Shown: positions 1-3,974 of the stretch, piece after piece | How positions within the stretch are numbered: position 1 is the stretch's first letter | How the letters are laid out: every line of letters begins with the position of its first letter | Virus record (IMG/VR): IMGVR_UViG_3300029376_000268 | DNA from: a virus | Taxonomy: Duplodnaviria > Heunggongvirae > Uroviricota > Caudoviricetes | Direction: 5' to 3' (one strand) | DNA: 4,340 nt | The notes under the pieces: generated by a model | The model's input: the letters and a program-made list of their open reading frames with translations, nothing else | Told to the model about the DNA's origin: nothing | The model's database searches: none | Translations under genes and position numbers: made by a program

Positions 1-43
1 GGTGATCAATCGAGAACTCGCCAGCTTGCTGCAGGCTTTATAG
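1..43 (+). CDS. wcaL: 3' end of upstream colanic-acid cluster gene, probably the glycosyltransferase WcaL (partial, 5' truncated by window)
   Basis: Frame 2 reads open from the window edge (codons from nt 2) as [13 protein letters not shown] and stops at TAG 41-43, 10 nt before the wcaM start. Assignment to wcaL is by synteny with the canonical wca cluster order only; 13 residues are too few to identify a family. Confidence 0.4.
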
Positions 44-49
44 AGGAGA
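43..49 (+). promoter_or_regulatory. Ribosome-binding site for wcaM (AGAGGAG)
   Basis: The purine-rich Shine-Dalgarno-like sequence tAGAGGAGaa ends about 5-6 nt before ATG 54. It overlaps the stop codon of the upstream ORF, suggesting tight operon packing. Confidence 0.6.
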
Positions 50-53
50 ACGT

Positions 54-1448
54 ATGCCATTTAAAAAACTCTCCCGACGCACCTTCCTGACGGCAAGCTC
101 GGCGCTTGCCTTCCTCCATACCCCTTTCGCTCGCGCGCTTCCCGCCCGACAAATCGTTAACATTAACGACTACAACCCACACGACTGGATCGCCTCATTT
201 AAACAAGCCTTCAGCGAAGGGCAAACGGTCGTCGTGCCTGCCGGATTCGTTTGTGAAAATATCAACACCGGCATCTTCATTCCTCCTGGCAAAACGTTGC
301 ACATCCTTGGAAGCCTGCGCGGCAACGGCAGAGGGCGATTTGTCTTACAGGACGGCAGCCAGGTGACAGGGGAGAAGGGCGGCCGTATGCATAACATCAC
401 CCTGGATGTGCGCGGCTCTGACTGCATCATCAAAGGGTTGGCGATGAGCGGTTTTGGCCCGGTAACGCAGATTTATATCGGCGGCAAAAATAAACGCGTC
501 ATGCGCAACTTGACCATCGATAACCTGACCGTCAGCCACGCTAATTACGCCATTTTACGCCAGGGATTTCATAACCAGATTATCGGTGCCAACATCACCA
601 ATTGTAAGTTCAGCGACTTACAGGGCGACGCCATTGAATGGAATGTAGCAATCAATGATCGCGACATTTTGATATCCGACCATGTCATCGAGCGCATCAA
701 CTGTACTAACGGCAAAATCAACTGGGGCATTGGCATAGGCCTTGCGGGAAGTACCTACGATAATAATTATCCGGAAAACCAGGCAGTGAAAAACTTTGTC
801 GTGGCGAATATCACGGGATCAGATTGTCGGCAACTGATCCATGTTGAAAATGGTAAACATTTTGTTATCCGTAATATCAAAGCTCGTAATATCACGCCGG
901 ATTTCAGTAAGAAAGCAGGTATTGATAACGCCACAGTTGCTATTTATGGTTGTGACAACTTTGTGATTGATAATATTGAAATGATTAATAGTGCCGGGAT
1001 GTTAATTGGCTATGGGGTAATTAAAGGCAAATATCTCTCGATACCGCAGAATTTCCGAGTGAATGATATTCAACTGGATAATACTCATCTTGCTTATAAA
1101 TTGCGCGGCATCCAAATCTCCGCCGGGAATGCTGTCTCCTTTGTGGCGCTGACTAACATTGAGATGAAGCCTGCGTCGCTTGAGCTACACAATAAACCGC
1201 AACACCTTTTTATGCGAAATATCAATGTGATGCAGGAATCCTCTGTTGGACCCGCATTGAGCATGAACTTCGACATGCGCAAAGACGTACGCGGTGTCTT
1301 TATGGCGAAAAAAGAAACACTGCTGTCACTTGCAAATGTTCATGCGATGAATGAAAAAGGACAAAGCTCCGTCGATATCGACAGGATTAATCACCATATT
1401 GTTAATGTGGAAAAGATTAACTTTAGATTGCCGGAACGGAGAGAGTAG
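54..1448 (+). CDS. wcaM: Colanic acid biosynthesis protein WcaM; predicted Tat-exported right-handed parallel beta-helix protein of unknown function
   Basis: 464-aa ORF with ATG start and a strong upstream SD. The N-terminus [28 protein letters not shown] has a twin-arginine motif (S-R-R-x-F-L), a hydrophobic core and an AxA site. The body has recurring N-[IL]-T / N-x-T motifs ([38 protein letters not shown]) typical of beta-helix asparagine ladders. Position directly upstream of galF matches the known last gene of the colanic acid cluster. Coordinates include the stop codon. Confidence 0.92.
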
Positions 1449-1608: not shown

Positions 1609-1614
1609 AGGTGG
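1609..1614 (+). promoter_or_regulatory. Ribosome-binding site for galF (AGGTGG)
   Basis: AGGTGG lies 8 nt upstream of ATG 1623. This supports ATG 1623 as the true start rather than the GTG at 1611 used by the ORF track. Confidence 0.6.
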
Positions 1615-1622
1615 ATGAAATA

Positions 1623-2516
1623 ATGACGAATTTAAAAGCAGTTATTCCTGTAGCGGGTCTTGGGATGCATATGTTGCCTGCCACTAAGGCGATTCCCAAA
1701 GAGATGCTACCGATCGTCGACAAGCCAATGATTCAGTACATCGTTGACGAGATTGTGGCTGCAGGGATCAAAGAAATCCTCCTGGTAACTCACGCTTCCA
1801 AGAACGCGGTCGAAAACCACTTCGACACCTCTTATGAATTAGAATCTCTCCTTGAACAGCGCGTGAAGCGTCAACTGCTTGCGGAAGTGCAGTCCATCTG
1901 TCCACCGGGCGTGACCATTATGAACGTGCGTCAGGGCGAACCTTTAGGTTTGGGCCACTCCATTTTATGTGCACGACCTGCTATTGGTGACAACCCATTT
2001 GTCGTGGTACTGCCAGACGTTGTTATCGATGACGCCAGCGCCGACCCGCTGCGTTACAACCTTGCTGCCATGATTGCTCGTTTCAACGAAACGGGCCGCA
2101 GCCAGGTGCTGGCAAAACGTATGCCGGGTGACCTCTCTGAATACTCCGTTATTCAGACCAAAGAACCACTGGATCGTGAAGGTAAAGTCAGCCGCATTGT
2201 TGAATTTATCGAAAAACCGGATCAGCCGCAGACGCTGGACTCAGACATCATGGCCGTGGGCCGTTATGTGCTTTCTGCCGATATTTGGCCGGAACTGGAA
2301 CGTACTCAGCCTGGTGCATGGGGACGTATTCAGCTGACTGATGCCATTGCTGAGTTGGCAAAAAAACAAGCAGTTGACGCAATGCTGATGACTGGGGACA
2401 GTTACGACTGCGGAAAGAAAATGGGTTATATGCAAGCGTTTGTGAAGTATGGGCTGCGTAACCTAAAAGAAGGGGCGAAGTTCCGTAAAGGGATTGAGAA
2501 GCTGTTAAGCGAATAA
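1623..2516 (+). CDS. galF: GalF, UTP-glucose-1-phosphate uridylyltransferase paralog (GalU-like, regulatory/low-activity subunit)
   Basis: Translation from ATG 1623 gives a 297-aa protein [43 protein letters not shown]..., the sugar-nucleotidyltransferase N-terminal fold with the GalU-like motif. The G-L-G-M-H-M variant (instead of GalU G-L-G-T-R-M) and the position between the wca and rfb clusters identify galF rather than galU. The track ORF 1611..2516 starts at an in-frame GTG 4 codons upstream; ATG 1623 has the better SD spacing. Coordinates include the TAA stop. Confidence 0.93.
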
Positions 2517-2774: not shown

Positions 2775-2813
2775 CAGTGCTCTGGTAGCTGTAAAGCCAG
2801 GGGCGGTAGCGTG
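2775..2813 (+). promoter_or_regulatory. JUMPstart element (39 bp) containing the ops (operon polarity suppressor) site GGCGGTAG for RfaH-dependent antitermination
   Basis: Sequence CAGTGCTCTGGTAGCTGTAAAGCCAGGGGCGGTAGCGTG matches, as I recall it, the conserved JUMPstart found upstream of polysaccharide operons. The ops core GGCGGTAG is at 2802-2809 (extended GGCGGTAGCGTG to 2813). It lies in the untranslated leader 76 nt upstream of the rfbB start, the canonical position. Confidence 0.85.
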
Positions 2814-2888: not shown

Positions 2889-3974
2889 GTGAAAATACTT
2901 GTTACTGGTGGCGCAGGATTTATTGGTTCTGCTGTAGTTCGTCACATTATAAATGATACGCAGGATAGTGTTGTTAATGTCGATAAATTAACGTACGCCG
3001 GAAACCTGGAATCACTTGCAGATGTTTCTGATTCTGAACGCTATTTCTTTGAACATGCGGATATTTGTGATGCAGCTGCAATGGCACGGATTTTTGCTCA
3101 GCATCAGCCGGATGCAGTGATGCACCTGGCAGCTGAAAGCCATGTTGACCGTTCAATTACAGGCCCTGCGGCATTTATTGAAACCAATATTGTTGGTACT
3201 TATGTCCTTTTAGAAGCGGCTCGGAATTACTGGTCTGCACTTGATGGCGACAAGAAAAACAGCTTCCGTTTTCATCATATTTCTACTGACGAAGTCTATG
3301 GTGATTTGCCTCATCCTGACGAGGTAAATAATAAAGAAGGATTACCCTTATTTACTGAGACGACAGCCTACGCACCAAGCAGCCCTTATTCTGCATCAAA
3401 AGCGTCCAGCGATCATTTAGTCCGTGCGTGGAAACGTACCTATGGTTTACCGACCATTGTGACTAATTGCTCTAACAATTATGGTCCTTATCATTTCCCG
3501 GAAAAATTGATTCCATTGGTTATTCTGAATGCTCTGGAAGGTAAAGGATTACCTATTTATGGAAAAGGCGATCAAATTCGCGACTGGCTGTATGTTGAAG
3601 ATCATGCGCGTGCGTTATATACCGTCGTAACCGAAGGTAAAGCGGGTGAAACTTATAACATTGGTGGACACAACGAAAAGAAAAACATCGATGTAGTGCT
3701 CACTATTTGTGATTTGTTGGATGAGATTGTCCCGAAAGAGAAATCTTACCGCGAGCAAATTACTTATGTTGCCGATCGTCCGGGACACGATCGACGTTAT
3801 GCGATTGATGCTGAGAAGATTGGTCGCGAATTGGGATGGAAACCACAGGAAACGTTTGAGAGCGGGATTCGTAAAACTGTGGAATGGTATCTGTCCAATA
3901 CAAAATGGGTTGATAATGTGAAAAGTGGTGCCTATCAATCGTGGATTGAACAGAACTATGAGGGCCGCCACTAA
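2889..3974 (+). CDS. rfbB: dTDP-glucose 4,6-dehydratase (RmlB/RfbB), extended short-chain dehydrogenase/reductase family
   Basis: 361-aa ORF with a GTG start ([14 protein letters not shown]...). It has the N-terminal Rossmann NAD-binding motif TGGAGFIGS, the STDEVYG motif and the catalytic YxxxK (PYSASK). The C-terminal region (...[16 protein letters not shown]...[18 protein letters not shown]) is typical of RmlB. First gene after JUMPstart, as in E. coli/Shigella/Salmonella rfb clusters. Coordinates include the TAA stop. Confidence 0.95.

What the first reader, a model, noticed from the sequence alone, without database searches (positions are those of the whole stretch)
54..1448. WcaM: Tat-exported beta-helix protein in the colanic acid cluster with no assigned function
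The N-terminus has a textbook twin-arginine signal (SRRTFL, hydrophobic stretch, AxA site ARA at residues 26-28, nt 54-137). The mature protein is packed with N-x-T/N-I-T repeats that form asparagine ladders in right-handed parallel beta-helices, the fold used by pectate lyases and phage tailspike or capsule depolymerases. WcaM has, to my knowledge, never been given a biochemical role. A periplasmic beta-helix enzyme in an exopolysaccharide cluster is a plausible polysaccharide lyase, hydrolase or chain-length-modifying enzyme for colanic acid; this is a hypothesis, not a known function.
Basis: partly seen in the sequence, partly recalled or inferred. Interest (0 to 1): 0.6.

Follow-up and report, generated by a model that had tools for sequence, protein, structure and literature searches.

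The report
WcaM: host-encoded colanic acid hydrolase candidate
The last gene of the E. coli colanic acid slime cluster with no assigned function encodes an exported beta-helix protein that is a clear relative of the enzymes phages use to cut colanic acid, so it is most likely the cell's own colanic-acid-cutting enzyme, a prediction that can now be tested directly.

Summary
Window 54..1448 (+) is E. coli wcaM (464 aa), the last colanic acid gene, just upstream of galF and rfbB. It has a twin-arginine signal (SRRTFL, ARA at residues 26-28), significantly enriched N-x-T motifs, and a confident right-handed beta-helix model.

WcaM is a sequence homologue of phage colanic-acid-degrading tailspikes:
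- Phi92 gp150, the "colanidase" (PDB 6E0V): E=3e-24, best Foldseek match with TM 0.71.
- NST1 CAE: E=6e-12.
- PHROG 6117 "colanic acid degradation": E=1e-52 over residues 86-460.

Both phage enzymes are reported to hydrolyse colanic acid. WcaM keeps every family-invariant polar residue (D192, E195, N197, W224, G225, Q260, H263, E265). It lacks the phage N- and C-terminal domains and carries a Tat signal instead. Distant cellular relatives (Raoultella, Bradyrhizobium, soil metagenomes) also have RR signals and lie in Wzx/Wzy clusters beside WcaD-type polymerases.

Best reading (about 0.65): a Tat-exported periplasmic endo-glycosidase that trims or clears colanic acid, functionally like Pantoea WceF. 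A lyase or epimerase role is unlikely. No enzyme assay exists; a 2026 paper still calls the role unclear. Novelty: new member of a known kind. Interest: moderate.

The parts
1..43 (+). 3' end of wcaL (last glycosyltransferase gene of the cluster), stop TAG at 41-43
   Evidence: Frame-2 translation ends ...ELASLLQAL*. RefSeq annotation of the identical record.
43..48 (+). Shine-Dalgarno GAGGAG, 5 nt before the wcaM ATG. The 10-nt gap to wcaL means the two genes are in one operon.
   Evidence: Read directly from the sequence.
54..1448 (+). wcaM coding sequence, 464 codons plus stop
   Evidence: ORF list. NCBIfam WcaM equivalogs at 1021.6 and 969 bits. RefSeq annotation.
54..137 (+). Tat-type signal peptide, residues 1-28. 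Predicted cleavage after A26-R27-A28.
   Evidence: Sequence. The same 28 residues are listed as the WcaM Tat signal in PMC7549933. Disordered in the model.
72..89 (+). Twin-arginine motif S-R-R-T-F-L (residues 7-12)
   Evidence: Kept as [ST]RRx[FL][LIVM] in 80 of 80 species loci. RR also present in distant cellular homologues.
225..1418 (+). Right-handed parallel beta-helix, residues about 58-455 (about 11 rungs), preceded by a capping helix at residues 45-55
309..1433 (+). Residues 86-460: stretch that aligns to the central catalytic part (profile positions 194-559 of 711) of PHROG 6117 'colanic acid degradation'
   Evidence: hmmscan E=1.4e-52.
540..1097 (+). Residues 163-348: most conserved core, aligned to Phi92 gp150 (PDB 6E0V) chain residues 180-374, which are residues 358-552 of the full-length protein
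   Evidence: phmmer against PDB E=3.2e-24. BLASTP E=1e-26, 32% identity.
624..644 (+). Motif 1, G-D-A-I-E-W-N (residues 191-197). Candidate catalytic carboxylates D192 and E195, plus N197. Corresponds to gp150 D387, E390 and N392.
   Evidence: Across 67-68 family members: D192 99%, E195 93%, N197 96%. Invariant in orthologs. Coordinates.
720..740 (+). Motif 2, N-W-G-I-G-I-G (residues 223-229), the glycine-rich strand of the next rung. Corresponds to gp150 420-426.
   Evidence: W224 87%, G225 100%, G229 96%. Coordinates.
828..848 (+). Motif 3, R-Q-L-I-H-V-E (residues 259-265). Candidate catalytic E265 with H263. Corresponds to gp150 H461 and E463.
   Evidence: Q260 96%, H263 100%, E265 100%. 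Coordinates.

Best explanation
WcaM is the cell's own colanic acid glycanase.

**Proposed steps**
1. It is made with the rest of the Rcs-controlled cps operon. (Shown: gene position and operon layout.)
2. It folds in the cytoplasm into a right-handed beta-helix. (Inferred from the model.)
3. It is exported folded to the periplasm by the Tat pathway, and its 28-residue signal is cut after ARA. (The motif is shown; export and cleavage are inferred and also listed in the literature.)
4. It acts as an endo-glycoside hydrolase on the colanic acid backbone. It uses the same active surface as the phage colanidases: three stacked motifs on consecutive rungs, GDAIEWN, NWGIGIG and RQLIHVE, with D192/E195 and E265 (helped by H263) as the likely acid/base pair. 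(Homology and residue conservation are shown; catalysis and bond specificity are inferred. By analogy with Phi92 gp150 the bond would be the Glc-beta-1,4-Fuc linkage between repeat units.)

**Proposed physiological role (inferred)**
Trimming chain length and/or clearing polymer that is made at the periplasmic face but not exported through Wza. This would avoid periplasmic clogging and trapping of undecaprenyl carrier. Pantoea WceF does this kind of job for stewartan, and AlgL, BcsZ and PslG do it in other exopolysaccharide systems.

**Architecture**
WcaM is the catalytic beta-helix of a phage colanidase tailspike with the virion-attachment N-domain and the C-terminal domain removed and a Tat signal added.
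For: **Homology to enzymes with reported activity**
- Phi92 gp150 (6E0V/6E0W): phmmer E=3.2e-24, BLASTP E=1e-26.
- NST1 colanic acid-degrading enzyme: E=6e-12, 35% identity over 164 residues.
- Sortsne tailspike colanidase: E=2e-23 over WcaM residues 90-451.
- PHROG 6117 'colanic acid degradation': E=1.4e-52 over residues 86-460.
- 247 phage records match WcaM, most of them annotated as colanic acid degradation or colanidase.

**Reported activity of those relatives**
- gp150 hydrolyses the beta-1,4 Glc-Fuc bond of colanic acid (PMC13450770 citing Xu 2025).
- NST1 CAE releases repeat-unit oligosaccharides and no monosaccharides (PMC9143390).

**Structure**
- The best Foldseek match in the PDB is 6e0v_A: E=1.2e-10, TM 0.71. 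Every other match has TM below 0.5.

**Conserved residues**
- All family-invariant polar residues are present in WcaM, invariant in 39 orthologs, and kept as exact motif strings, together with the Tat motif, in 189 of 197 ortholog representatives. A dead binding protein would be expected to lose them.

**Export signal and genomic context**
- The RR motif is kept in 80 of 80 species.
- Distant cellular homologues from Raoultella, Bradyrhizobium and soil metagenomes all carry RR signals and all lie inside Wzx/Wzy clusters next to WcaD-type polymerases.
- The phage-type long forms lack the signal.

**Precedent**
- Pantoea WceF is Tat-signalled, has a tailspike-like beta-helix, is cluster-encoded, cleaves stewartan, and its mutants make longer polymer (PMC7949094).
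Against: - No assay of WcaM activity exists in the literature I could search.
- I could not read the coordinates of the model or of 6E0W. The claim that D192, E195 and E265 line one groove rests on sequence register and secondary structure, not on measured distances.
- The catalytic residues of gp150 are not described in any paper I could read.
- Identity to gp150 is only 32% over the core and about 20% overall, so substrate or bond specificity could differ.
- Salmonella groups use a wcaM deletion as a 'colanic acid-deficient' strain and see phenotypes (PMC8171120). If that label is literally true, WcaM is needed for production, not only for trimming.
- A constitutively co-expressed periplasmic depolymerase seems counter-productive unless its activity is low or restricted.
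- The alignment used for the structure prediction was shallow (39 sequences, 74-84% identical).
Confidence: 0.65

Rival explanations
1. WcaM is a non-catalytic colanic-acid-binding protein. It would be a periplasmic lectin-like scaffold or chaperone that guides the growing polymer from the WcaD/Wzc machinery to Wza, keeping the sugar-binding groove of the colanidase fold but not turnover.
For: It is annotated as a 'biosynthesis' protein. wcaM deletions are used as colanic-acid-deficient strains and have phenotypes. It co-occurs with WcaD-type polymerases in all four distant clusters examined. Tailspike-like beta-helices can act as binding modules; WceF also aggregates with stewartan.
Against: Every family-invariant acidic or polar residue shared with the active phage enzymes is retained under strong purifying selection: D192, E195, N197, H263, E265. 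Inactivated homologues normally lose such residues.
Confidence: 0.15
2. WcaM is a beta-helix polysaccharide lyase or a C5-epimerase that modifies colanic acid, like AlgG/AlgE4, PL6 lyases or RbmB, rather than a hydrolase.
Against: There is no sequence match to any lyase or epimerase family: Pfam gives zero hits at E<=0.1, and the only PDB sequence hit at E<=10 is gp150. The two characterised relatives are reported as hydrolases giving reducing-end oligosaccharides. From my own knowledge of the colanic acid structure, the glucuronic acid is in the side chain, so beta-elimination cannot cut the backbone, and no epimerised uronic acid is present. The N-P-H-D string at residues 41-44 resembles the epimerase DPHD motif only superficially: it lies in the N-terminal cap, and it is not among the family-wide conserved positions.
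Confidence: 0.07
3. WcaM is a glycoside hydrolase whose real substrate is not finished colanic acid. It could act on lipid-linked intermediates, releasing polymer from undecaprenyl diphosphate, or on foreign colanic-acid-like polysaccharides from neighbouring bacteria.
For: It sits in the periplasm, where Und-PP-linked polymer is made. Colanic acid is a released slime, and colanic acid loci carry wcaM while group 1 capsule loci do not (PMC6128206). Identity to gp150 is low outside the core.
Against: There is no direct evidence. The Raoultella homologue P0123 sits in what looks like a Klebsiella-type capsule (K) locus, which weakens any strict link to slime rather than capsule. The conserved groove motifs argue for the same kind of bond as the phage enzymes.
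Confidence: 0.13

Closest known systems
Phage colanidase tailspikes: Phi92 gp150 (PDB 6E0V/6E0W), NST1 colanic acid-degrading enzyme, PHROG 6117; grouped with WcaM in Pfam PF27800
   Same: Homologous catalytic beta-helix (E=3e-24 to gp150, E=1e-52 to the PHROG). Best structural match (TM 0.71). All invariant residues shared (GDAIE-N, WGIGIG, H-V/F-E). The presumed substrate is the same polymer.
   Different: WcaM is 464 aa against about 790-800 aa. It lacks the N-terminal virion-attachment region (PHROG profile positions 1-193) and the C-terminal domain (positions 560-711; an Ig-like domain in gp150). It has a Tat signal instead. It is chromosomal and co-expressed with the polymer's synthesis genes. 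Its oligomeric state and activity are unknown.
Pantoea stewartii WceF (PMC7949094)
   Same: Tat signal, tailspike-like right-handed beta-helix, encoded inside a Wzx/Wzy exopolysaccharide cluster. WceF cleaves its own cluster's polymer, and mutants make longer chains. It is the closest functional analogue.
Cluster-encoded periplasmic glycanases or lyases of other exopolysaccharide systems (AlgL, BcsZ, PslG, PelA). Named from established knowledge, not tested here.
   Same: The same logic: a degrading enzyme co-encoded with the synthesis machinery and acting in the periplasm to clear or trim polymer.
   Different: Unrelated folds and families, mostly synthase-dependent pathways, and Sec rather than Tat export.
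Beta-helix alginate epimerases and polysaccharide lyases (AlgE4, AlgG, RbmB, PL6, K1 and K5 lyases)
   Different: No sequence-family match. Different chemistry, and no suitable uronic acid in the colanic acid backbone.

Membership tests
Colanidase catalytic-domain family (PHROG 6117 / Pfam PF27800; prototypes Phi92 gp150 and NST1 CAE) | Significant sequence similarity to the catalytic beta-helix of a characterised colanidase | tested here: met
   phmmer against PDB E=3.2e-24. BLASTP to gp150 E=1e-26. NST1 CAE E=6e-12. PHROG 6117 E=1.4e-52 over residues 86-460. The precomputed Pfam family is PF27800 'WcaM', which also covers phage tailspikes.
Colanidase catalytic-domain family | Right-handed parallel beta-helix that superimposes on 6E0V | tested here: met
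Colanidase catalytic-domain family | Family-invariant polar residues present (D, E and N of GDAIE-N; W-G; Q, H and E of Q-x-x-H-x-E) | tested here: met
   D192, E195, N197, W224, G225, Q260, H263 and E265 are all present. They are 87-100% conserved in 67-68 diverse members and invariant in orthologs.
Colanidase catalytic-domain family | Hydrolysis of colanic acid | not testable with these tools
   Needs an enzyme assay. Activity is reported only for gp150 and NST1 CAE.
Phage tailspike proteins | N-terminal virion-attachment domain and C-terminal domain flanking the beta-helix; phage genomic context | tested here: not met
   WcaM aligns only to PHROG profile positions 194-559 of 711. It has no tail-fibre N-domain or Ig-like C-domain, unlike gp150 and P0131. 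It is chromosomal, in the cps operon.
Tat (twin-arginine) exported proteins | S/T-R-R-x-F-L consensus, weakly hydrophobic h-region, basic c-region, A-x-A cleavage site | tested here: met
   SRRTFL at residues 7-12, h-region mean hydropathy 0.91, R27, ARA at 26-28. Conserved in 80 of 80 species and in distant cellular homologues.
Tat (twin-arginine) exported proteins | Export depends on TatABC | not testable with these tools
   [quoted passage not shown] I recall a signal-peptide reporter study (Tullman-Ercek 2007) but could not verify it here.
WceF-type cluster-encoded tailspike-like glycanases | Tat signal, beta-helix, and a gene inside a Wzx/Wzy exopolysaccharide cluster | tested here: met
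   WceF features taken from PMC7949094.
WceF-type cluster-encoded tailspike-like glycanases | Sequence homology to WceF | tested here: not met
Beta-helix polysaccharide lyases, C5-epimerases and GH28 | Match to a lyase, epimerase or GH28 sequence family | tested here: not met
   Pfam gives 0 families at E<=0.1. The fold similarity is generic.

The most novel reading that the evidence does not exclude
WcaM is an active, Tat-exported 'self-colanidase' that sets the chain length and the released-slime character of colanic acid and rescues undecaprenyl carrier from stalled periplasmic polymer. It would belong to a wider, so far unrecognised class of RR-signalled colanidase-like enzymes that travel with WcaD-type polymerases in Wzx/Wzy clusters from Enterobacteriaceae to Bradyrhizobium. 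In this reading the catalytic module has been exchanged repeatedly between host clusters and phage tailspikes. As a consequence, the many studies that use wcaM deletions as 'colanic acid-null' strains would need re-reading.
Probability: 0.3. Interest if true: 0.7.

Novelty: new member of a known kind. Interest (0 to 1): 0.55.

Why it matters
- **An open gap in a model pathway.** In the literature I could search, WcaM still has no assigned role: a 2022 paper assigns roles to the other genes of the cluster and leaves WcaM out (PMC9143390), and a 2026 paper still calls its role unclear. The homology found here turns 'unknown' into a specific, cheap experiment: a named substrate, a named control enzyme (gp150 or NST1 CAE), three named residues to mutate, and a predicted product.
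- **Generality.** If confirmed, the idea that exopolysaccharide machines carry their own glycanase would extend from synthase-dependent systems and from WceF to the model Wzx/Wzy pathway.
- **Phage-host evolution.** It would give a cellular counterpart, and a possible source or sink, for a widespread phage depolymerase module.
- **Published phenotypes.** Salmonella and E. coli studies that equate a wcaM deletion with loss of colanic acid may be looking at altered polymer size or location instead.
- **Practical use.** A small, monomer-sized colanidase could be useful for making low-molecular-weight colanic acid.

Tried and rejected
- **Local Pfam-A copy.** No hit for WcaM at E<=0.1. The family exists only as the newer PF27800, seen in precomputed annotations.
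- **GTDB genome scan with 14 distant homologues**. The 80 returned loci were all Enterobacteriaceae-type wcaM loci (three carry non-enterobacterial record titles). This was useful for conservation statistics but gave no distant contexts. Those came instead from contig look-ups.
- **Primary papers on gp150.** Schwarzer 2012 (PMC3457257) and Xu 2025 are not held. The activity of gp150 is therefore cited second-hand, and its catalytic residues are unknown to me.
- **WceF homology.** None found by sequence, and WceF is not among the top structural matches. Kept as a functional analogue only.
- **Lyase or epimerase reading.** Rejected for lack of any family match and on substrate chemistry. The NPHD string at residues 41-44 was judged coincidental.
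- **Literature check on wcaM mutants.** I looked for direct measurement of colanic acid amount or size in wcaM mutants and found none.
- **Neighbour-joining tree of the core domain**. It shows cellular RR-bearing clades interleaved with phage-type clades. It has no support values, so I use it only as a hint of repeated exchange.
- **Short ORFs overlapping wcaM on either strand** (62-87 aa; one on the + strand, four on the - strand). These are mechanical ORFs with no supporting evidence.
- **Promoter and terminator scan of 1400-2900.** Nothing above the shuffle expectation.

Full report
**What is in the window.**
The window is E. coli chromosome. It is 100% identical to NZ_CP091756.1 and matches 5238 of 5426 complete E. 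coli genomes. It contains:
- the last 43 nt of wcaL;
- wcaM (54..1448);
- galF (annotated 1623..2516);
- a JUMPstart element (2775-2813);
- rfbB (2889..3974);
- the start of rfbD.

wcaM is the last gene of the colanic acid operon, which runs wza...wcaL-wcaM. It lies 10 nt after the wcaL stop and has a GAGGAG ribosome-binding site.

**Checking the observation.**
- The ORF is 464 aa and scores as the WcaM equivalog (1021.6 bits).
- The N-terminus is [28 protein letters not shown]. It has a consensus twin-arginine motif, a weakly hydrophobic h-region, a basic residue in the c-region and ARA at 26-28.
- The RR motif is kept in 80 of 80 Enterobacteriaceae species loci, and galF follows directly in 79 of them.
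- N-x-T occurs 8 times against 1.76 expected, and N-[ILV]-T 6 times against 0.43. No shuffle out of 5000 reached these values.
- An AlphaFold2 model built from 39 orthologs has pLDDT 83.9 and pTM 0.84. The signal peptide is disordered, there is a capping helix at 45-55, and regular beta rungs run from 58 to 455.

- A plain sequence search of the PDB returns one hit: phage Phi92 gp150, deposited as 'colanidase tailspike protein'. WcaM 163-348 aligns with chain residues 180-374 at E=3.2e-24.
- Against the full 804-aa gp150 the BLASTP E-value is 1e-26 at 32% identity.
- The same structure is the best Foldseek match for the whole model (E=1.2e-10, TM 0.71). All other matches have TM below 0.5.
- WcaM residues 86-460 match the central part (positions 194-559 of 711) of PHROG 6117 'colanic acid degradation' at E=1.4e-52.
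- tblastn finds relatives in 247 phage genomes, mostly annotated as colanic acid degradation or tailspike colanidase. Some cover about 80% of WcaM at 25-28% identity.
- The phage NST1 colanic acid-degrading enzyme is also a homologue (E=6e-12).

Both prototypes have reported activity. gp150 hydrolyses the beta-1,4 Glc-Fuc bond of colanic acid (PMC13450770 citing Xu 2025). NST1 CAE gives repeat-unit oligosaccharides without monosaccharides and lowers the polymer from 8.7 MDa to about 107 kDa (PMC9143390).

**Is WcaM likely to be active?**
An exhaustive search of 1.84 billion representative proteins finds only 192 relatives. They fall into two architectures:
- proteins of about 400-500 aa, most of which carry RR N-termini;
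- proteins of 600-1000 aa with phage tail-fibre N-domains and no signal.

In an alignment of 67-68 diverse members, a handful of polar residues are nearly invariant: D192 (99%), E195 (93%), N197 (96%), W224 (87%), G225 (100%), Q260 (96%), H263 (100%) and E265 (100%). WcaM has all of them. They are invariant in 39 orthologs. The exact motif strings and the Tat motif occur together in 189 of 197 ortholog representatives. They correspond to gp150 D387, E390, N392, W421, G422, H461 and E463.

The three motifs GDAIEWN (191-197), NWGIGIG (223-229) and RQLIHVE (259-265) are 32 and 36 residues apart. In the model's strand pattern they fall at the same position of three consecutive rungs. From this I infer a single groove in which a glycine-lined middle rung sits between carboxylates on the rungs above and below, as in other beta-helix glycosidases. 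That geometric step is inference: I could not read coordinates.

**Genomic context beyond Enterobacteriaceae.**
Four distant cellular homologues could be placed on contigs:
- P0133, from a farmland soil metagenome;
- P0123, from Raoultella planticola, in what looks like a Klebsiella-type capsule (K) locus with GDP-fucose genes and a pyruvyl transferase;
- P0276, from Bradyrhizobium sp. 150;
- P0277, from another metagenome.

Each lies inside a Wzx/Wzy-type polysaccharide cluster that also encodes a WcaD-type polymerase (PF27321). Each has an RR signal and the three motifs. For P0276 the called start is too short, and the RR motif is in the in-frame upstream extension. The pairing of a Tat signal with a colanidase-like helix inside a polysaccharide cluster is therefore recurrent, not an E. 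coli oddity. A rough neighbour-joining tree places cellular clades among phage-type clades, which hints at repeated exchange, but it has no support values.

**Best explanation.**
WcaM is a Tat-exported periplasmic endo-glycoside hydrolase for colanic acid. It is the catalytic module of a phage colanidase without the virion-attachment and C-terminal domains. I put this at about 0.65.
- Shown: homology, fold, conserved residues, signal motif and its conservation, operon position, recurrent context.
- Inferred: export route, catalysis, the bond cleaved, and the physiological role.

For the role I favour trimming and clearing periplasmic polymer and relieving carrier-lipid sequestration. This is by analogy with WceF (Tat-signalled, tailspike-like, cleaves stewartan, mutants make longer polymer; PMC7949094) and with AlgL, BcsZ and PslG (my own knowledge).

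**Rivals.**
- A non-catalytic binding or scaffold protein (0.15). The retained invariant residues argue against it.
- A hydrolase with a different substrate, such as lipid-linked polymer (0.13).
- A lyase or epimerase (0.07). There is no family match, the relatives are hydrolases, and the backbone lacks uronic acid.

**Comparison with what is known.**
The gene, its Tat signal and its fold class are already known. Databases already group WcaM with phage proteins: PF27800, PHROG 6117, and a 'wcaM superfamily' hit in a phage genome noted in PMC6141743. Some phage tailspikes are even mislabelled 'colanic acid biosynthesis protein'.

What I could not find anywhere in the searchable literature is the functional conclusion. 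No paper links WcaM to hydrolase, depolymerase or tailspike. The WceF paper does not mention WcaM. A 2026 paper says its role remains unclear. Salmonella groups treat a wcaM deletion as colanic acid-deficient.

WcaM passes the membership tests for the colanidase catalytic-domain family and for Tat substrates (motif level). It fails the tests for tailspikes, for WceF homology and for lyase, epimerase or GH28 families.

**Verdict.**
It is a new member of a known kind rather than a new kind of system. Interest is moderate (0.55). The homology is visible to anyone who runs a search, but it makes the long-open question of the cluster's one gene still lacking an assigned role directly testable, and it affects how wcaM mutants are read.

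Noticed in passing
window 804-1103 (wcaM codons 251-350): Sharp compositional break inside wcaM. GC3 is 0.58-0.72 in codons 1-250, falls to 0.30-0.36 in codons 251-350, and recovers partly afterwards; overall GC drops from about 54% to about 38%. The low-GC part includes the HVE motif. It may reflect a mosaic origin or recombination next to the O-antigen locus. PMC13139461 reports that wcaM alleles predict O serotype with 0.88 accuracy, which fits linkage to the O-antigen locus.
   Followed up: partly
window 1611-1623: The mechanical ORF for galF starts at GTG 1611 (301 aa). The GalF family models align from residue 5, and RefSeq annotates the start at ATG 1623 (297 aa).
   Followed up: yes
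window 2775-2813: JUMPstart RNA element (Rfam RF01707, 60 bits, E=1.8e-12) with the ops sequence GGCGGTAG at 2802, upstream of rfbB, as expected at the head of an O-antigen operon.
   Followed up: yes
phage records ON568341.1 (H14), OM362897.1 (H21), OP921041.1 (H48): Phage tailspike-type genes are annotated 'colanic acid biosynthesis protein', evidently by name transfer from WcaM, while their close relatives are annotated 'colanic acid degradation'. The same family carries opposite functional labels in different records.
   Followed up: no
L084 1369-4063; L086 10001-19625; L087 4264-11125; L089 10001-14555: In all four distant clusters examined, the WcaM-family gene co-occurs with a WcaD-type polymerase (PF27321). 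In L084 the two genes are adjacent with only a 1-nt gap. This may be a functional coupling of glycanase and polymerase, or it may only reflect similar fucose-containing polymers.
   Followed up: partly
L087 about 9850-10000: The Bradyrhizobium homologue P0276 (374 aa as called) has a miscalled start. The in-frame upstream extension encodes ...LLISRRSLVAIAAVLPVAVPTARSALA, a typical Tat signal.
   Followed up: yes
L018, L071; P0067, P0298: Typical enterobacterial wcaM genes sit in assemblies titled Chryseobacterium sp. 18061, Vagococcus sp. WN89Y and Bacillus amyloliquefaciens, and the two loci (L018, L071) also carry galF directly downstream. These are probably contaminated or mislabelled assemblies.
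   Followed up: no
literature: PMC8171120, PMC7074811: Salmonella biofilm studies use a wcaM deletion as the 'colanic acid-deficient' strain. In the passages I read, no measurement of colanic acid amount or size in that mutant is given. If WcaM is a glycanase, the label may be inaccurate.
   Followed up: partly
PMC6128206 (context of window 54-1448): That paper notes that wcaM is the final gene of colanic acid loci and is absent from group 1 capsule loci, whereas wzi is unique to group 1 capsules. This is a reciprocal pattern that could relate to released slime versus anchored capsule. The Raoultella homologue, which sits in what looks like a Klebsiella-type capsule (K) locus, argues against a strict rule.
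   Followed up: no
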